Shown: in pieces, positions 3,930 to 47,329 of the stretch | Layout of the letters: each line of letters opens with the position of its first letter | Position numbering within the stretch: the stretch's first letter is position 1 | IMG/VR virus record: IMGVR_UViG_2654587772_000002 | Strand: one strand, 5' to 3' | Length of the DNA: 64,000 nucleotides | Source of the DNA: a virus | Taxonomy: Duplodnaviria; Heunggongvirae; Uroviricota; Caudoviricetes | Translations under genes and position numbers: made by a program | The notes under the pieces: generated by a model | What the model was told of the DNA's origin: nothing | The model's database searches: none | The model's input: only the letters and a program-made list of their open reading frames with translations

Positions 3930-4350
3930 CCTGTGCGAGATTTATTACGTAACTTCTGCGGATTTGCTGAGTAACAGGGAAAATCCGATACAACGGGTTA
4001 ATGAACGAGTCGCCATGCGTAACCATGACGTTGAAATGCCACAGTCGCTCTCCTTTACCCATATATTCAGTGGGTATGTACAACCATTCACTGTTTTCGC
4101 CCTGTTCAGCCGACGTCAGACAACGTTGTTCGCCTTCAATCACTGTCGTCGGCTTCTGAACATCGCGGATCCAATATCTGACCGTTGCGCCGCGCAAAAA
4201 CGGGAATTTAGACCGGTATTTGAACGGCACCCGAATGAAACCCGGTTTAATTTCCACATCACCAAGTTCTAAATGCGTGATGTCCTTGCGTTTTAGCAAA
4301 TAGCGATCGGCTAAGGCTAACGCAAGAACGCATACACCCCAGCCAATCAT
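3907..4350 (-). CDS. Membrane-anchored protein (147 aa), putative LydB-like antiholin
   Basis: ORF track. Single N-terminal hydrophobic helix (IGWGVCVLALALA). Overlaps the upstream holin-like gene by 4 nt. Size matches recalled P1 LydB. Confidence 0.5.
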   Translation of the reverse strand: MIGWGVCVLALALADRYLLKRKDITHLELGDVEIKPGFIRVPFKYRSKFPFLRGATVRYWIRDVQKPTTVIEGEQRCLTSAEQGENSEWLYIPTEYMGKGERLWHFNVMVTHGDSFINPLYRIFPVTQQIRRSYVINLAQDVSDDEK

Positions 4351-4676
4351 TTCCCACCTCCCTTTTTCACCAAACTTGTAAGAACATTCAGAATGCTATC
4401 GATATTCACTCGTTTCATCCCTGAAATCACCTCATGACCGTTATTGCTGGCTATCGTTACCATTAAGTACGTAATTGATAACTCCCAGCCTTCGTGTTGC
4501 CCCAATAGGTACGCCACCGCGCCAGCTGTCACTGCAACAAAGATCTCCGTAACCAATCCCAACAAGTTGCCAGACTGGCGACCATCTCGGACATCCATCA
4601 GGAACGTGCCTATCCCACCAATTACTGAAAGCAGGAGCGCAATAGCAACTGGAGCTAATTCCTGTGTGTCAAGCAC
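4347..4676 (-). CDS. Small membrane protein with 2-3 TM helices (109 aa), holin-like (LydA-like)
   Basis: ORF track. Hydrophobic segments APVAIALLLSVIGGIGTFL, EIFVAVTAGAVAYLLG and ITYLMVTIA, with a charged C-terminal tail. Confidence 0.55.
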   Translation of the reverse strand: MLDTQELAPVAIALLLSVIGGIGTFLMDVRDGRQSGNLLGLVTEIFVAVTAGAVAYLLGQHEGWELSITYLMVTIASNNGHEVISGMKRVNIDSILNVLTSLVKKGGGK

Positions 4677-4778
4677 AAGTTCCCTCCTACGTTGTCAGGA
4701 GGTAATGGTATGCAAAGTAACTTCTCAACCGGTCATGTTACTTGACATCCTCCACGTCCTTTAGAGCGTGGAGGATGT

Positions 4779-5650
4779 GTGCGCCCAGCATGGGCGCGAT
4801 CTTGGAGGTGAAAGCCCTCCCGCGAGCTGACCACAGCGAGCGAAAGGAAGTGCAACTGCGTGAGGGCGGCTAGGCGTGGGGAGGAAGCACGGAATGAACC
4901 CGTGAGCCGATGAACAAGAATCGGATATGAGGCGCGATGGAGCAAGGCGAGCAGGCACATCACTGCGAAGCTTTCGTGACAAAGTCGCGTAGATCCGACG
5001 GTTGTGCGGGGAAGGATCGCGTTCTTACCTGGGGAGTTCTCGCCTCATGCCTGAAAGGGCAACGTCGTAAGACGGAGCGAGAAGTCAGCAGAGGCCGTAG
5101 TAGTCAGGACTCCGACGAAGGGCCGAACGAGAAGGAAAGCCAAAAGATATGACTCTTGACAGGACATTGCGTCAGAAGCCGGGGAAGCCCGGTACGGACC
5201 CGCATGCCGGGTGGTGTGGCAGGGGCGCAGCCTTGTGCTCCCCCCTATGCCGATCAAGCAGAACATTGTGCTGGGCCTCTGACGCATCTCCTTGATGGTC
5301 TTGGCATCGTGCTTAAGTGGATTGGTGTCGTCTCTGATAGGCTCATGGAGGCAGAATGAAACTCAAAAATCCGGGACAGCACGCAAAACAGGCTGCACAA
5401 AAAGCGCAGGTTGCGTAGGAGTGGAATCCCGCTCCCAAAAAATGGTGCAGAAGTTGCGGCAGTGGTCATCCGACGCACTGGAAAATAACAAACCCGCCGT
5501 GACCAGAATCGGAGGCCTGAGGGAGTGACCGTAAAACCGGATAACCCAGGCAGCAAATACCCGCTGGATGAGGCATGGTTCCGGCAGATAATACCGAAAA
5601 CCGCCAGACACACTGGATAATCAGTAGAAATAACCCATTAAAATCATTAT
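4779..5650 (+). mobile_element. GC-rich non-coding region with a group II intron-like 5' end (GUGCG plus first stem); possibly an ORF-less or degenerate intron; 3' boundary unknown
   Basis: GTGCGCCCAGCATGGGCGCG at about 4779 resembles the canonical group II 5' end and first domain I hairpin. An 8-bp hairpin (CCTCCACG...CGTGGAGG) lies just upstream. No long ORF on either strand and no reverse transcriptase. I could not identify a canonical domain V by eye. Confidence 0.3.
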
Positions 5651-5674
5651 AATAATTGGGCACATTATTATATT

Positions 5675-6238
5675 ATGCTGAATAATAGAGACATGAATAT
5701 TAATGAACTTAAAGACTGTATTCACTATGAAGTAATCGGTAGCGAGCGTCCTTTCTCCTGGCGAAAGGCAATTGTTCGCGCAATAAAACATAGAAGAGTT
5801 CGTTATTTATTTTGGTGGCGCATAGCCAAATACCTTTTTGATAAAGGCGGATACTGTCGGAAGATTGCGGGGAAAATGGAACGTTTCATTCTTGATAAAT
5901 ATAGTGTAACAGTCCCTTTAACTGTAAATATAGGGAAAGGCTTTGATATTTCTTATCTCAACGGTGTTGTTATCGGTCACAAAGTAACCATTGGTGAAAA
6001 TTGTTCAATAAAACCAGGGGTAACTATTGGGCTACGTGGTGATTTTAATGATATGGATATTGTTATAGGACATAATGTGACCATTGGTTGTAATGCCACC
6101 ATTCTTGGTGGCAAAGTGCGTATAGGAAACAATGTCACAATAGGTGCTCATGCATTGGTATTGCATGATATTCCTGATGATTCAACATTCATCACTAAAT
6201 TTCAGTCTGAAGTTATCTGCTCGTCCTCTTGCACATAA
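5675..6238 (+). CDS. Hexapeptide-repeat acetyltransferase, serine O-acetyltransferase (CysE)-like
   Basis: Tandem [LIV]-G-x-x-x-x hexapeptide repeats ([21 protein letters not shown]...[32 protein letters not shown]) after a CysE-like N-terminal helical segment. AT-rich, and on the opposite strand to the flanking phage genes. Confidence 0.8.
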
Positions 6239-6819
6239 CCCTGATTCATCAGCTCTGGCCATACGATATCCGGAGCTGTACTGGTGTCAATTCGACTCAC
6301 TAATACTCTGTATTTTCTCCAGGAATCCAGTTGTGAATTTTCCTCGGTTGTTGCTATTTCAAGATTAACTGCATCCTGCAGAATTGCGATGTTATCTGTT
6401 GCCTCCTGAATCAACCTTGCCTTTTTCTCTTCCGCTTCCCGTATCCGAAACAGTTTTTCTGCTTCCTCATCCTTCACCCAGGATACGCCGTCCCACTTCT
6501 GATACTCCCCTGCTGGCGACAACCAGGTGACATTCTCTGGTAACGGTCCGAGTTCAGAAATAAACAACGCGTCCCCCGATGCCACGTCATAGACCGTTTT
6601 ACCACGATGGTCTTCAACAATAATCCATGATTCATTTTCACTGTTAAAAACTGCCACAAAGCCAGCAGGAATTTCCGGTGGGGCGATATCTGTAGAATTA
6701 GCTGGTAGCCCTGTATGAGGTGGAATATATGCGTCACCTTCACCAATAAACTCATTAGTTCCGGCGAGCAGGTTATAAATTTTTACAGTACGTGATTGTT
6801 CACTCATTCTGAATGCCAT
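6202..6819 (-). CDS. tfa: Tail fibre assembly protein (Tfa/gpU family)
   Basis: N-terminus [54 protein letters not shown] is typical of the enterobacterial Tfa family. Sits immediately downstream of the tail fibre gene. Confidence 0.85.
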
Positions 6820-7709
6820 TATGCAAGCCTCACAATATAATTAAATGCGATGTTTTTAACGGTGTTTTCCGAGTTACCAGCAGCGTTAACGGTGATGGTG
6901 TGTCCATGTGAACCAATCGCAACAGAGTGCGTATGAGCGCCAATATCAACTGTATGTGCATGCGCCCCTGCACTTGCAGCGGTGCCTGATACTGAGTGGG
7001 TGTGTGCACCAGAAGAAGGCACAGTTCCATTCCCCACCACAGTGCCGCTTGATGAGCCATCAAGCCAGTCGAAATTCATACCGCCACCATCTGGTCTCCT
7101 TAATGGAACGGTATGAGTATGTGCGCCAGCACTATTTGCAGTACCAGATACATTGTGGGTATGTGCACCTGTGTTATTCGTTGATTTAGTACCGTAATCA
7201 AACGAAGATGTGGTTTTCGTACCCAAATCCGTATTGGATGCGCTGGCGCTGTGGGTGTGCGATTTAATGCCATCCTGTTCCAGAGACAATACGTCCCGAC
7301 CACTGGCGGGTTTGCCCTTGATTGTCCAGCCACGCATATCCGGGATCACGCCTGACGGATAAGCGGCTGCAAGTTTCGGGTATGCAGATTTGTCAAAAGT
7401 CTGTCCCTGCATCAGGGCGTAACCAGACGGCACAGTATCTGATGGCCACGGATGCGGAACACCAACAGGAAGGACCTCAATATCCCCGGAACCATCAAAC
7501 GAAACGTTATTAATTTTACGGGCTGTTTTCAGCTTTGTAGCCGTTGAGGCATTGCCGGACAGCTCACCAGAAATGCCACCAACAACTGTTAGATCACCAG
7601 TTATTGTGCCGCCTGAACTTTCCAGTTTTTTAGCAACATCACTCTTAATAGAGTCGATTTCTTTTTTCAGATTAGTTATATCTGCTGGTATCGTTGTCAC
7701 TGTTGCCAT
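6819..7709 (-). CDS. Tail fibre distal (receptor-binding) module with HxH/GAHTH repeats
   Basis: Carries the junction motif [26 protein letters not shown], then [32 protein letters not shown], repeated GAHTH(S/T)V motifs and the C-terminal [11 protein letters not shown] typical of side tail fibre tips. Confidence 0.8.
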
Positions 7710-7718
7710 ATTAATTCC

Positions 7719-7997
7719 TTACGCCCATTCCCGCAGCGGTTGTTCTAATTGAACTTCAAAACCATCAAACATTTGTTGTTTCAAACTGTTGTTTAAAATA
7801 CGAACATTAACGAAGAAGCCATCATTTTTAATCACTGTTGGTTCTTCGTTCTCGCCGTTTGGTATTTCGGTATATGTAACACCTACAACATCAAGAAGAA
7901 TGTTGTTTTGCAGCTCTTCATTATCGTGCCAGGATATACTCTCTAAAAAAGAGTCGTATTCTGCCCTGTCTCTGAATTTCAACGTGATATCTTTCAT
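7719..7997 (-). CDS. Hypothetical protein (92 aa) between the tail fibre genes
   Basis: ORF track only. Acidic, no motif recognised. Abuts the stop of the long fibre gene. Confidence 0.4.
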   Translation of the reverse strand: MKDITLKFRDRAEYDSFLESISWHDNEELQNNILLDVVGVTYTEIPNGENEEPTVIKNDGFFVNVRILNNSLKQQMFDGFEVQLEQPLREWA

Positions 7998-10897
7998 TAA
8001 ATAACCTCAGCCATTTGTTGGTCTGTTAATGCTTTATGCCATATTCTGAAATTTCTGATATGACCAAATAAATGACGTAACCCTGCTGTAGTCTGGCCTC
8101 CAATACGGATGGTTGCAGAGTTCTGAATATAGGACCATGTCGTCTTTGTTTCGCTGGATATGCGCCCGTTACTTACTGAGCACGTAGACTGATCTGATTT
8201 TACACGCATCCCCATAACCATTTTTTCAAGCAATGCGTTTTCGTTTACCCGTCTGTTAGCTCCTCCAATATCGCAATAAGGAAATCCGTCGTAATCTGCT
8301 GAAGAACCGAAGCCAAGAATAATAGCCGCTCCGGTTTGATGACCGCCGGTATCAAAAACACGTGGCGCTGCATTTGGCGTTTTATACCAGTTCTTATGTA
8401 CCTCACAAAGAACCGTAAAAGGAAGATTATAAAGATTATTATTAATTGGAACTGTAACTATATCGCTTGCGCGGGTAGCCGCCGTCGTTCCCGAGATAAT
8501 AAAAGATGATGCACACGAACCATCCTCAACCTGAGGGGTGGACAGATAAATATAGTCTCCAGATATGGTTGCTCCGCCCTGCTTAGGAGAATACTGTATC
8601 TGAGATCCTATTTTTAACTCATCATCAATTGCCTGGATTGTTGCCTCTGCAAAAATCCATCCGGTAGCTTCGTCCTTTCTGACTCTCGCTGTAATCCTTG
8701 AGGCCGCGCCACCTGTCATATTAATTTCAAGCGTTTGTGTATCAATATATGCATCACCAAGAAAAGTTGTTGCACTACCGTCATATTTATCAAAGCGGAT
8801 ACGTAACCTTACCTGTCGTTCTGTTTTAAAACGACATGAGGTTGTCACGTACTTGTTATCGCCTGAAACATCAACTGACTTTGTAGCAGCAATTGATGCC
8901 ATATTAATGGCTGACGTTTGCCCAATCAGAGAATCGTTACAGACAAACTTTCCATAGGTAAAACCAAAACTATCCGTCCCGGTTTCGGGAACATCCATAT
9001 TTGACGAGCGCCCCCAACTGGCAGGGTTTTCCGAATTGAGCATGTAGTTTGTTCGTTGTCCCTCAATAAGCAGACCATCACGTTCAAATCGTGGCTCGTC
9101 AATGGCAGCCTCTGTCAGCACACCAGATTTATTTATATAGGTTGCTTTCGATGCGCGTTTAAACTTAACAACCTTGTCGCCAGGCATTGTTATTTCGTCG
9201 TCGCCAATAACAATCTTTTTATATGATGGAGAAAAGCCCGCAATCATATCCAGCGAATCGTTAAACGGTATCCACACATCTGGCAGCGGTTGAATAATCT
9301 TCCTGGCATCCTCCAGTGACAATGCTTCGACATCCGAAGCTGTTAAAGAAATATCTGCCGAACCGTCAAATGAAACGTTGTTAATCATCCGTGCTGTTTT
9401 TAATTTCGTTGCGGTGTCGGCGTTCCCCATCAGTGCGCCGGTGATCCCGCCGTTGAAAGTCTGGCGTGCACTCCATGTGTTAGCCGTGCTCAACAGGGGG
9501 ATCTTTTCACCGCTTGTGCCGAGTTCTCTTAAACCAAGGTATTGGATAACAGCAAGGACGCTTGTTTTGGACAGAATATCGCGACCGACTGACGTTAAGT
9601 CAGTCTGAGAAACAGTGTCTGTACCGGTAAAGTACGGCAGTTTATTTGCGCCTGTAGCAAGACCAGCAAGCGCGGTTAAAGTTGCATCCAGAGGCTGTTT
9701 GCCTGCCAGCGCATTTGTCATTGTTGTCGCAAAGTTCGGGTCATTACCAAGTGCTGCGGCAAGCTCATTCAGGGTATCAAGAGCTTCTGGTGATGAACCA
9801 ACCAATGCGGATATGGCAGCTCTTACATAAGCAGTCGTAGCAATCTGCGTATTATTTGTGCCCTGCGCAGCCGTAGGCGCAGTAGGGACTCCCGTTAATG
9901 CAGGGCTTGCCAAAGGCGCTTTGAGGGCTAGGGCATTGTTGATAGTTGTGCTGAAATTCGGGTCGTTATTGATCGCAGCAGCTATTTCTTTAAGCGTATC
10001 CAGTGTGCCAGGTGCACCGTTGATAAGTGCCGTTATAGCTGACTTAACAAAGGCTGTATTTGCGATCTGCGTGCTATTTGTACCTTGCGCTGCCGTCGGC
10101 GCGGTTGGCGTTCCTGTCAGACTCGGGCTTTCTATTGGCGCTTTGGTATCAGCAAGACCTTTTACAGACTTAACGGCTTTAGGGGTAGCCGCCATTGTTT
10201 CGCTGTCGCTGTTAGTTTCGCTACTGAGCTGAACTAATCCCTTTTGCGTTGTGCTTGCATCCTGTGCCGTATACTTGCTTTTCGCCAGATCGTAGGCTTT
10301 TTTAGCTGCCAGCGAACTTGCAGCAACATCACTTCTGCTACTGGTTACAGAGTCTGAAATATCAATGCCGATCGTGCGGTTAATACGCTCGGATGTATCA
10401 ATCATCTCCTGGGTAATGGCTGATACGCCAGCAGGGATATTCACCGTACAAACAAGCAGCTCTCCATCTCCTAACTGATATGAATCGGTATAGGTTCTGG
10501 CAACAAATTCAGCCGCATGAATATGTGACGCGGTATTAACCTGATAGGTATCCTCTCCAAGGAGGTATCTTCCCTTCAGCACAATTGCATATTTCTTGCC
10601 TTCACTAAGTGCAAGAGAAATATCCTTACGGTGCCGAATAGTTACCTGGTAGAATTCACCAATATCCACTGACGCAGCGCCAGCAGTTTTATCACCATCC
10701 ACTGAGGTGATTAACAGGTTCATACCACCGCCAGGCTTCGGCAGGAAACCGGCATAAAACCCAGGATCAACAATTCCCCTGAATTTTCGGTTTAGCGCGG
10801 CTGACAGATATGGTTCGTGGTATTGCACATCAGCCACCAGAGCCAGTGACTCGGGCGATGGGTAAGTAACTGATGTAACAACTGTAACGTCATTCAT
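7997..10897 (-). CDS. Long tail fibre protein (Stf / gpS-like), about 966 aa from the internal Met
   Basis: Start set by codon arithmetic at Met30 (MNDVTVV...). Contains the TQKGLVQLSSETNSDSETMAATPKAVKSV fibre motif, collagen-like Ala/Thr/Pro repeats, and the junction motif [26 protein letters not shown] followed by its own C-terminal domain. Confidence 0.85.
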   Translation of the reverse strand: MNDVTVVTSVTYPSPESLALVADVQYHEPYLSAALNRKFRGIVDPGFYAGFLPKPGGGMNLLITSVDGDKTAGAASVDIGEFYQVTIRHRKDISLALSEGKKYAIVLKGRYLLGEDTYQVNTASHIHAAEFVARTYTDSYQLGDGELLVCTVNIPAGVSAITQEMIDTSERINRTIGIDISDSVTSSRSDVAASSLAAKKAYDLAKSKYTAQDASTTQKGLVQLSSETNSDSETMAATPKAVKSVKGLADTKAPIESPSLTGTPTAPTAAQGTNSTQIANTAFVKSAITALINGAPGTLDTLKEIAAAINNDPNFSTTINNALALKAPLASPALTGVPTAPTAAQGTNNTQIATTAYVRAAISALVGSSPEALDTLNELAAALGNDPNFATTMTNALAGKQPLDATLTALAGLATGANKLPYFTGTDTVSQTDLTSVGRDILSKTSVLAVIQYLGLRELGTSGEKIPLLSTANTWSARQTFNGGITGALMGNADTATKLKTARMINNVSFDGSADISLTASDVEALSLEDARKIIQPLPDVWIPFNDSLDMIAGFSPSYKKIVIGDDEITMPGDKVVKFKRASKATYINKSGVLTEAAIDEPRFERDGLLIEGQRTNYMLNSENPASWGRSSNMDVPETGTDSFGFTYGKFVCNDSLIGQTSAINMASIAATKSVDVSGDNKYVTTSCRFKTERQVRLRIRFDKYDGSATTFLGDAYIDTQTLEINMTGGAASRITARVRKDEATGWIFAEATIQAIDDELKIGSQIQYSPKQGGATISGDYIYLSTPQVEDGSCASSFIISGTTAATRASDIVTVPINNNLYNLPFTVLCEVHKNWYKTPNAAPRVFDTGGHQTGAAIILGFGSSADYDGFPYCDIGGANRRVNENALLEKMVMGMRVKSDQSTCSVSNGRISSETKTTWSYIQNSATIRIGGQTTAGLRHLFGHIRNFRIWHKALTDQQMAEVI

Positions 10898-46800: not shown

Positions 46801-47329
46801 ACAGCGAATCAGATCAAATAAAACGCACATTTGTTAACATTTACACAAAGTCTGCGTGGGATATTCTGAAAGAATATCCATAATGTGGAGAGAATCTATT
46901 GAAGTGCATGGTGCCGGGTGCCTCCCGGTGAACAAAATGTTCGTGATACCTGTCGGCGACAGAAAAGGTTAATGGTATCACCCCACCGCACAGGGGGATT
47001 CACCATGCAGGAGTTTTCTTAGCAAACTCACTGCGCGCCCGGCAACTCCCAACCACATAAAATGCGGAGTTTGTGGTATTTATGCATATAACTCGCAGGA
47101 ATTATCTTAAAAAACTGATGTCGATCCGGATTAAAAAGAAGCAGGTCATCATCAGATGACTGGAAAAAAGGAAAACAAAAAATACTCATCATACAGTTTT
47201 GATTGCAGGGATGAGCCTGCTATGCACAATATGCAGAATATAAGCAAGATAAAAATATGCAGGCATATTATTTCGGATTTTGTTATTAACACAACCTTTT
47301 TAATAATCATTTGGCATACAATAAACCAG

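What the first reader, a model, noticed from the sequence alone, without database searches (positions are those of the whole stretch)
4749..5650. GC-rich non-coding stretch beginning with a group II intron-like 5' end but lacking a reverse transcriptase ORF
Just after an 8-bp hairpin, the sequence GTGCGCCCAGCATGGGCGCG reproduces the GUGCG 5' consensus and first stem of bacterial group II introns. About 0.9 kb follows with no credible ORF on either strand, many short GC helices and GAAA-type loops. Placement after a hairpin is reminiscent of intron classes that target terminator stems. It could be an ORF-less or decayed intron, or a different structured RNA.
Basis: partly seen in the sequence, partly recalled or inferred. 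Interest (0 to 1): 0.5.

Follow-up and report, generated by a model that had tools for sequence, protein, structure and literature searches.

The report
Decayed ORF-less group IIC intron remnant
The stretch is not one structured RNA but genetic debris in a P1-like prophage: a 476-base group II (class C) intron that has lost its reverse-transcriptase gene and part of its catalytic core, sitting in a 40-base palindrome and followed by a broken piece of a phage tail tape-measure gene.

Summary
Window 4779-5254 is a real group II intron with both ends intact (Rfam RF02001 95.5 bits, RF01998 46.8 bits).

- **Boundaries:** an intron-less allele of the same P1-like locus (L018) is contiguous across the site, which fixes the limits to the base.
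- **Class:** it is class C (IIC). The parent's protein matches solved IIC reverse transcriptases best. Relatives sit just after terminator hairpins. Domain V carries a CGC triad.
- **Parent:** it is 96% identical to a full-length 1832-nt E. coli intron (L010).
- **Damage:** a 1350-nt deletion between two GCCCGG repeats removed all but 15 codons of the reverse transcriptase and the first three bases of domain V. Domain V, invariant in five intact relatives, carries four changes here. I therefore take it to be catalytically dead.
- **Hairpin:** it is a 40-nt palindrome whose right arm equals the right end of IS609.
- **Rest of the 0.9 kb:** 5258-5617 is a frameshifted tape-measure gene fragment, and 5618-5674 is the AT-rich promoter region of an acetyltransferase gene.

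This is an ordinary decayed mobile element. The one mildly notable point is that this intron lineage homes to an IS609-type hairpin.

The parts
4742..4778 (+). Left arm, loop and most of the right arm of a 40-nt palindromic unit (TTGACATCCTCCACG-tcctttagag-CGTGGAGGATGT). Its last 5 nt, GATGT (4774-4778), are the candidate IBS1.
   Evidence: It folds with 13 pairs, -23.5 kcal/mol, z -6.3. The uninterrupted unit is present at the same locus in L018. Solo copies with unrelated flanks occur in L014-L017. The right arm is identical to the IS609 right end.
4779..5254 (+). ORF-deleted group IIC intron, 476 nt, running from 5' GUGCG to 3' ...CCUAUGCCGAU.
   Evidence: The filled versus empty alleles (window versus L018) differ by exactly this segment. 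The same boundaries appear in L010 versus L012. The segment is 96% identical to nt 1-420 and 1765-1832 of the 1832-nt intron in L010.
4860..5024 (+). Domain I core (Rfam group-II-D1D4-3). It includes the candidate EBS1, ACAUC, at 4957-4961, and a window-specific 6-nt deletion between 4979 and 4980.
   Evidence: RF02001 scores 95.5 bits against a gathering score of 32. The EBS1 loop varies between relatives. The 6-nt deletion is absent from L009 and L010.
5042..5123 (+). Domains I(end)-III segment (Rfam group-II-D1D4-1).
   Evidence: RF01998 scores 46.8 bits against a gathering score of 35.
5149..5193 (+). Residual first 15 codons of the intron-encoded reverse transcriptase (MTLDRTLRQKPGKPG).
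   Evidence: tblastn of the L010 protein against the window matches residues 1-15 only, at 93% identity.
5187..5192 (+). Deletion junction: the single remaining copy of the GCCCGG direct repeat that flanked the lost 1350 nt.
   Evidence: The two BLAST segments against L010 overlap by exactly these 6 nt.
5184..5215 (+). Domain V remnant. The base of the helix is altered (parent ACC becomes GAA at 5184-5186) and there is a G-to-A change at 5194 in the upper helix.
   Evidence: Domain V is invariant in five intact relatives. The model R1 alignment marks the broken pairs. The upper helix is no longer predicted to form.
5217..5252 (+). Domain VI with a bulged candidate branch-point A at 5247, 7 nt before the 3' end.
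   Evidence: The consensus fold and a compensatory change in L019 (GGCA/UGCC to GGGA/UCCC) support the helix.
5255..5257 (+). CAA: the last 3 nt of the palindrome and of the IS609-type right end, forming the start of the 3' exon.
   Evidence...GGATGT|CAA is contiguous in L018, L012, L013 and L014-L017.
5258..5617 (+). Frameshifted fragment of a P2-like tail tape-measure gene (pseudogene).
   Evidence: It is 74% identical in DNA to L004 3001-3368, which lies inside an annotated tape-measure CDS. The protein similarity jumps between all three frames and contains stops.
5618..5674 (+). AT-rich (21% GC) leader with a promoter-like site, TAGAAA-17-TATAAT (5625-5653), for the downstream acetyltransferase.
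5675..6238 (+). Hexapeptide-repeat (serine) acetyltransferase gene. It is a neighbour of the intron, not part of it.
   Evidence: Pfam Hexapep, E 6.6e-13; RefSeq annotation.
4347..4676 (-). lydA holin. The P1 late promoter LPdar region (about 4705-4730) lies between this gene and the palindrome. This is left-flank context.
   Evidence: Homology to P1 ends at 4736-4739.

Best explanation
Window 4779-5254 is a dead copy of a mobile group IIC intron. I infer the following order of events.

1. A P1-like phage-plasmid already carried the sequence [40-nt palindrome][tape-measure gene fragment][acetyltransferase] in place of P1's lydC-cin segment.
2. A full-length IIC intron of an E. coli lineage inserted into the top strand of the palindrome, 3 nt before its end. 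Its EBS1 loop (ACAUC) pairs with the palindrome's GAUGU. This is the usual IIC route: recognition of a DNA stem-loop, a short IBS1 pairing, and reverse splicing.
3. A 1350-nt deletion between two GCCCGG repeats then removed the reverse transcriptase gene and the base of domain V.
4. Point mutations followed, and in this window a further 6-nt deletion.

The element now has no protein and a damaged catalytic domain. It most likely neither splices nor moves. It lies between two outward-facing promoters, where it does no harm. The remainder of the 'non-coding 0.9 kb' is a tape-measure pseudogene fragment plus promoter DNA.

Shown directly: the intron's identity, its boundaries, its class, the deletion and the damage to domain V. 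Inferred: the order of events and the loss of activity.
For: - **Intron domains:** Rfam hits RF02001 and RF01998.
- **Match to relatives:** the element is collinear at 78-82% with full-length introns in Vibrio (L006) and Sinorhizobium (L007), and 96% identical to the E. coli intron in L010 across both the 5' and 3' parts.
- **Boundaries:** the empty-site allele at the same locus (L018) is contiguous across ...GGATGT|CAAG... and shares the tape-measure fragment and the acetyltransferase. A second filled/empty pair, L010 and L012, gives the same boundaries.
- **Class C:** the parent protein has RVT_1 plus GIIM and no endonuclease domain. Its best solved relatives are GsI-IIC RT (433 bits) and the E. 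rectale and R. intestinalis IIC proteins (266-313 bits), against 149 bits for a IIB protein and 134 bits for the IIA protein LtrA. L006, L007 and L019 all sit directly after stem-plus-T-run terminators.
- **Deletion:** it lies between two GCCCGG repeats, and only 15 codons of the protein survive.
- **Domain V:** it is 100% conserved in five intact relatives. The window has four changes there, and model R1 scores 67.4 bits against 92-102 bits for the intact copies.
- **No sign of mobility:** every copy that carries this deletion (30 records) has the same flanks, at one place per record.
- **Continuing decay:** the window copy has mutations that L009 lacks.
- **Tape-measure fragment:**
Against: - Loss of activity is inferred from sequence only.
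- The deletion happens to create an AGC triad, the canonical sequence in IIA and IIB introns, and domain VI with its branch-point A is intact. Residual ribozyme activity therefore cannot be excluded.
- No full-length intron was found at the P1-like site in any record. The order 'insert first, delete later' is therefore not directly shown.
- The intron-bearing allele (30 records) is commoner than the empty one (3 records).
- The intact copies that score 92-102 bits are the sequences the model was trained on, so the size of the score gap is inflated.
Confidence: 0.85

Rival explanations
1. The element is a functional ORF-less intron. It still splices, either alone or with a reverse transcriptase/maturase supplied in trans by a related intron in the same cell, and it may have been mobilised into the P1-like site in its ORF-less form.
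For: Both intron ends, domains I-III, most of domain V and all of domain VI are present. The junction creates an AGC triad. Bacterial ORF-less introns that rely on a protein supplied in trans are described (PMC4424553; PMC12350094). The insertion is precise.
Against: - Two base pairs at the foot of domain V and one of its three or four upper pairs are lost, in a domain that is invariant in relatives.
- The 3' strand of the domain IV stem is gone.
- The ST2747 chromosome holds no second copy of this intron lineage, and the window holds no reverse transcriptase.
- The deletion lies between short direct repeats, as an accidental slippage would.
- All 30 copies share one context.
- Mutations continue to accumulate, including a 6-nt deletion in domain I.
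Confidence: 0.07
2. The whole 0.9 kb acts as a structured 5' leader or regulatory RNA for the downstream acetyltransferase gene, or as some other non-intron structured RNA.
For: It lies on the same strand as the acetyltransferase gene and directly upstream of it. It is GC-rich and rich in helices.
Against: - The intron-less allele L018 keeps the same acetyltransferase gene without these 476 nt.
- A promoter-like site lies downstream of the remnants, at 5625-5653.
- No + strand gene reads into the region: the upstream genes listed are all on the - strand.
- 5258-5617 is demonstrably a decaying protein-gene fragment whose indels differ between alleles.
- No Rfam family other than the intron models matches.
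Confidence: 0.04
3. The intron-like 5' end is a chance resemblance, or the stretch is an unrelated non-intron element.
For: None, apart from the lack of an Rfam RF00029 hit.
Against: RF02001 scores 95.5 bits (E 4e-18). The segment is 96% identical to an annotated full-length intron. RF00029 also misses the intact relatives.
Confidence: 0.01

Closest known systems
Bacterial class C (group IIC) introns, for example B.h.I1, O.i.I1, and the introns that encode GsI-IIC RT and the E. rectale IIC protein
   Same: - The 5' ribozyme part is small, about 375 nt before the ORF.
- The protein lacks an endonuclease domain, and its closest solved relatives are IIC reverse transcriptases.
- Insertion is just after a DNA stem-loop, with only a short IBS1 pairing.
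- Domain V carries a CGC triad around a G-U pair.
   Different: This copy has lost its ORF and part of domain V. The stem-loop it occupies is an IS609-right-end-type palindrome, not a transcription terminator.
Full-length E. coli IIC intron inside the right end of IS609 (NZ_CP169399.1 2049098-2050929; L010 2480-4311, ltrA WP_000186915.1)
   Same: It is 96% identical over all retained parts. The 5' exon (CGTGGAGGATGT) and 3' exon (CAA) are the same.
   Different: L010 has the 456-aa reverse transcriptase/maturase and an intact domain V. The window copy lacks 1350 nt.
IIC-attC introns (the IIC lineage that inserts at integron attC stem-loops; PMC3001079)
   Same: Both are IIC sub-lineages that have switched from terminators to another class of mobile-element stem-loop.
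   Different: The target here is an IS200/IS605-type end or palindrome, not attC. No integron is present.
ORF-less bacterial group II introns (for example C.te.I1 and the cyanobacterial ORF-less copies; PMC4424553)
   Same: There is no intron-encoded protein, and the length is about 0.5 kb.
   Different: Those introns keep an intact catalytic core and do splice. This one arose by an accidental deletion that cuts into domain V.
Intron remnant downstream of ccdB on F-type plasmids (L002, p503440_52)
   Same: It has the same palindrome and the same intron lineage, about 90% identical.
   Different: It has a different internal deletion, a more decayed domain V (40 bits with R1), and different flanks.

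Membership tests
Group II intron | 5' GUGYG and conserved domain I-III structure | tested here: met
   GUGCG at 4779. RF02001 scores 95.5 bits and RF01998 46.8 bits, both above their gathering scores.
Group II intron | Domain V (catalytic helix with a 2-nt bulge) and domain VI with a bulged A 7-8 nt from the 3' end | tested here: inconclusive
   Both domains are located by homology and by the lineage model R1 (67.4 bits at 5183-5254). Domain VI and A5247 are intact. Domain V has lost its two lowest pairs and one upper pair. Rfam RF00029 does not detect this lineage even when it is intact.
Group II intron | Discrete insertion with defined boundaries (filled and empty sites) | tested here: met
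   The window compared with L018 at the same locus, and L010 compared with L012.
Group II intron | Self-splicing or protein-assisted splicing | not testable with these tools
   This needs RT-PCR or an in vitro splicing assay.
Class C (IIC) introns | Intron-encoded protein of the class C clade, lacking an endonuclease domain | tested here: met
   Tested on the parent, L010. It has RVT_1 plus GIIM only. Its best solved match is GsI-IIC RT at 433 bits, then the other IIC proteins, well above the IIB (149 bits) and IIA (134 bits) proteins. The window copy itself has no protein.
Class C (IIC) introns | Insertion directly downstream of an intrinsic-terminator-like or other DNA stem-loop | tested here: met
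   L006, L007 and L019 each follow a stem plus T-run. The window, L002, L003, L010 and L011 each follow the IS609-type hairpin.
Class C (IIC) introns | Short domain I with EBS1 and EBS3 only, and a CGC catalytic triad | tested here: inconclusive
   There are about 375 nt before the ORF. A candidate EBS1, ACAUC, pairs with GAUGU. A CGC triad around the G-U pair is seen in the intact relatives. Absence of EBS2 was not examined. In the window the triad reads AGC, opposite an unpaired G.
Class D (RmInt1-like) introns, the first impression from the Sinorhizobium BLAST hits | Homing to a long specific site (ISRm2011-2), with a class D protein | tested here: not met
   The Sinorhizobium relative L007 sits after a terminator hairpin and is 1822 nt long. 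The protein of the E. coli parent (L010) is IIC-like.
Functional ORF-less intron | Intact catalytic core, and usually a related protein available in trans in the same genome | tested here: not met
   Domain V is damaged. No second copy of the lineage is present in the ST2747 chromosome, and there is no reverse transcriptase in the window.

The most novel reading that the evidence does not exclude
This E. coli IIC lineage may not be terminator-seeking at all. It may be specialised to home into the terminal hairpin of IS609 (TnpB/insQ) elements and the 40-nt palindromes that share that arm. That would make it a retroelement riding on the end of a DNA transposon, inserted between the terminal stem-loop of the TnpB guide RNA and its guide. 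The P1-like copy would then be a fossil of such homing into a phage-plasmid. The supporting facts are that the EBS1 candidate matches the hairpin arm perfectly over 5 bp, and that the intron occupies this same hairpin in at least three different contexts: the IS609 right end, the P1-like palindrome, and the palindrome downstream of ccdB.
Probability: 0.5. Interest if true: 0.45.

Novelty: new member of a known kind. Interest (0 to 1): 0.22.

Why it matters
For the region itself it matters little. It explains an unannotated 0.9-kb gap in about 30 P1-like phage-plasmids and prophages as two pieces of decayed mobile DNA, so nobody needs to look for a new RNA there.

Three side points could be useful.

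- **A clean example in a phage-plasmid.** The filled and empty alleles form a clean pair showing a group II intron insertion in a temperate phage-plasmid. A 2025 survey states that such introns had been considered absent from phages (PMC12350094).
- **A possible third target type.** The IIC lineage seems to target an IS200/IS605-type end hairpin. If so, that adds a third kind of stem-loop target to terminators and attC sites.
- **A blind spot in a common screen.** The Rfam D5/D6 model misses this whole lineage, so screens that require that hit will under-count such introns.

Tried and rejected
- **Rfam RF00029 (D5/D6).** It gave no hit in the window even at E up to 10. It also gave none in the intact relatives, so the test says nothing here. 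I replaced it with my own model, R1.
- **RmInt1 / class D.** The 78% BLAST hits to Sinorhizobium suggested this. I rejected it because of the terminator context and the IIC-like protein of the E. coli parent.
- **The tape-measure fragment as a true 3' exon.** I considered that the intron had inserted into a tape-measure gene. I rejected this because the fragment abuts the end of the palindrome, not the intron, and does so in the intron-less allele too. The intact tape-measure gene in L004 has no hairpin at that point.
- **The hairpin as a remnant of an IS609 right end left by deletion.** This is partly rejected. The unit is a sharply bounded 40-nt perfect palindrome that also occurs alone, and only its right arm equals the IS609 end.
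- **The minus-strand ORF 5254-5613 (119 aa).** It lies antisense to the pseudogene and is shorter in L018. I did not pursue it.
- **Phage collection search.** No phage record holds the intron.
- **IMG/VR search with the intron protein.** It returned one 65%-identical relative and no P1-like locus with a full-length intron.
- **Literature searches.** Searches for group II intron with IS609, with IS605/TnpB, and with P1-like phage-plasmids found no description of this element.

Full report
**Where the window comes from.** Window 4700-5700 is 100% identical to the E. coli ST2747 chromosome (NZ_CP007393.1). About 30 records, mostly 90-120-kb plasmids, carry the same kilobase at 96-99.6% identity. 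The annotated neighbours are typical of P1: darA, hdf, lydB and the lydA holin on the minus strand to the left, and a serine acetyltransferase, a tail-fibre assembly protein and tail-fibre genes to the right. Homology to phage P1 itself runs through the late promoter LPdar and stops at window 4736-4739. P1 continues there with lydC, cin and the invertible C segment. The finding therefore lies in a variable module of a P1-like prophage or phage-plasmid.

**Checking the observation.** GTGCG begins at 4779, directly after a strong hairpin: 13 pairs, -23.5 kcal/mol, z = -6.3. The stretch is GC-rich, at 0.605 for 4779-5254 against 0.468 for the window. Rfam gives two gathering-level group II intron hits, RF02001 at 4860-5024 (95.5 bits) and RF01998 at 5042-5123 (46.8 bits). 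It gives no hit to the D5/D6 model RF00029, even at E up to 10.

**Intron boundaries.** BLAST against fetched relatives shows two collinear blocks.

- Window 4779-5136 matches the first ~360 nt of full-length introns in a Vibrio IncC plasmid (L006, 82%) and in S. meliloti pSymB (L007, 78%).
- Window 5187-5254 matches the last ~70 nt of those same introns.

A much closer full-length copy exists in two E. coli chromosomes. One is L010, 1832 nt long, with an annotated 456-aa ltrA. The window element equals nt 1-420 plus nt 1765-1832 of that intron at 96% identity. The two segments overlap by the hexamer GCCCGG. That is the signature of a 1350-nt deletion between two short direct repeats.

Two filled/empty comparisons fix the ends to the base.

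- L012 is the intron-less allele of the L010 locus (...GGAGGATGT|CAA...).
- L018 is a P1-like plasmid with the same lydA gene, the same palindrome, the same downstream sequence and the same acetyltransferase as the window. It reads straight through TTGACATCCTCCACGTCCTTTAGGGCGTGGAGGATGT|CAAGCAGAAC without the 476 nt.

**Class of the intron.** My first guess was RmInt1 (class D), because of the Sinorhizobium hits. That was wrong, for four reasons.

- The introns in L006, L007 and an IMG/VR relative (L019) each lie immediately after a classic stem plus T-run terminator.
- The parent protein has RVT_1 and GIIM domains and no endonuclease domain.
- Its best solved relatives are all IIC proteins: GsI-IIC RT (433 bits), then the E. 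rectale and R. intestinalis proteins (266-313 bits). A IIB protein scores 149 bits and the IIA protein LtrA 134 bits.
- Domain V, as folded from the aligned relatives, carries a CGC triad around the G-U pair, and the ribozyme part before the ORF is only about 375 nt.

A published review states that insertion after terminator motifs is specific to class C (PMC4424553).

**State of the ribozyme.**

- The deletion leaves only the first 15 codons of the protein, at 5149-5193.
- It also replaces the first three bases of domain V (ACC becomes GAA at 5184-5186).
- A further G-to-A change at 5194 breaks one of the few upper-helix pairs.
- Domain V is 100% identical in five intact relatives whose proteins are as little as 65% identical, so four changes in it indicate loss of constraint.

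RF00029 does not detect domains V/VI even in the intact L006, L007 and L010. I therefore built a model from five intact 3' ends (R1). It finds window 5183-5254 at 67.4 bits. The intact copies score 92-102 bits, but they are the training sequences, so the gap is exaggerated. The decayed F-plasmid copy scores 40 bits. The alignment marks the broken pairs.

Domain VI and its bulged A (5247, 7 nt from the end) are intact. A compensatory change in L019 supports that helix.

The window copy has extra lesions that the sister P1-like copy L009 lacks, including a 6-nt deletion in domain I at 4979/4980. All copies with this deletion junction share the same flanks, one per record. The ST2747 chromosome has no other member of the lineage. 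I conclude that this is a decaying, immobile remnant. Its inactivity is inferred, not measured.

**The hairpin.** It is not a terminator.

- Its right arm and the following CAA are identical to the right end of IS609 (insQ/TnpB), which is where the full-length intron sits in L010 and L011.
- In the window, in L018 and in the F-plasmid copy L002, the unit is instead a sharply bounded 40-nt perfect palindrome: TTGACATCCTCCACG-N10-CGTGGAGGATGTCAA.
- Four solo copies with unrelated flanks occur in an Oxalobacter metagenome-assembled genome. One of them appears, by my reading of its flanking sequence, to lie inside a GGDEF-type gene.
- 245 E. coli records hold a copy covering at least 80% of the unit.
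- The intron loop ACAUC (4957-4961) is perfectly complementary to the last five exon bases GAUGU (4774-4778). The same loop differs in relatives that sit after other hairpins. It is a plausible EBS1.

**The rest of the 0.9 kb.** Window 5258-5617 is 74% identical to the interior of a P2-like tail tape-measure gene (L004). The protein similarity is plain but hops between all three frames and contains stops. The indels differ between the window and L018. It is a pseudogene fragment. It abuts the palindrome in both the filled and the empty alleles, so it is not the intron's original exon context. Window 5618-5674 is 21% GC and contains a promoter-like TAGAAA-17-TATAAT just before the acetyltransferase start codon.

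**Verdict.** The object is an ordinary decayed class C intron next to an unrelated gene fragment. It is a new copy of a known kind, of low interest. The more interesting reading, still open, is that this lineage specialises in IS609-type terminal hairpins.

Noticed in passing
window 4742-4778 plus 5255-5257; L014 6000-6039, L015 4675-4714, L016 4735-4774, L017 7688-7727; L018 3001-3040: A 40-nt perfect palindrome, TTGACATCCTCCACG-N10-CGTGGAGGATGTCAA, occurs as a discrete unit with unrelated flanks. Four copies are in an Oxalobacter metagenome-assembled genome, one of which appears (from its flanking sequence) to interrupt a GGDEF-type ORF. 245 E. coli records hold a copy covering at least 80% of the unit. 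Its right arm equals the IS609 right end. It looks like a small mobile, REP- or PATE-like element.
   Followed up: partly
L010 2440-2479 and 4312-4315 (NZ_CP169399.1); empty allele L012: The full-length IIC intron sits 3 nt inside the right end of an IS609 (TnpB/insQ) element, just after the terminal hairpin. That hairpin gives a weak Rfam match to the TnpB-associated sot0042 RNA. The intron would therefore separate the guide-RNA scaffold from its flanking guide unless it is spliced out.
   Followed up: partly
L006, L007, L010 (intact introns): The Rfam D5/D6 model RF00029 fails to detect domains V/VI of this whole IIC lineage. L006 and L007 gave no hit at the gathering threshold. L010 gave none even at E up to 10 in a 2-kb search. 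Surveys that require that hit will miss these introns.
   Followed up: yes
L002 4001-4321 (plasmid p503440_52) and L003 3956-4217: The same palindrome plus a remnant of the same intron lineage lies directly after the ccdB stop codon on F-type plasmids, with an independent internal deletion. Another decayed copy occurs on an ETEC plasmid, with IS66-family genes annotated just downstream.
   Followed up: partly
window 5675-6238 (+): A low-GC (37%) hexapeptide-repeat acetyltransferase with its own promoter-like site is wedged against the tail-fibre assembly gene and overlaps it convergently (6202-6238). It looks like a moron in the tail-fibre module that replaces P1's lydC-cin-C segment.
   Followed up: no
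window 6819-9311 (-): RefSeq marks the adjacent tail-fibre and tail genes as incomplete pseudogenes (L001 8120-8770 and 9227-10612). The prophage's tail-fibre region may therefore be defective.
   Followed up: no
window 46852-47038 (-): A gathering-level Rfam hit to the gammaproteobacterial sRNA STnc100 (86.6 bits).
   Followed up: no
whole window: This P1-like element lies in a record labelled as a chromosome (NZ_CP007393.1, about 2.15 Mb), whereas 474 of the 498 matching places in E. coli are on plasmids. It is either an integrated P1-like prophage or an assembly join.
   Followed up: no
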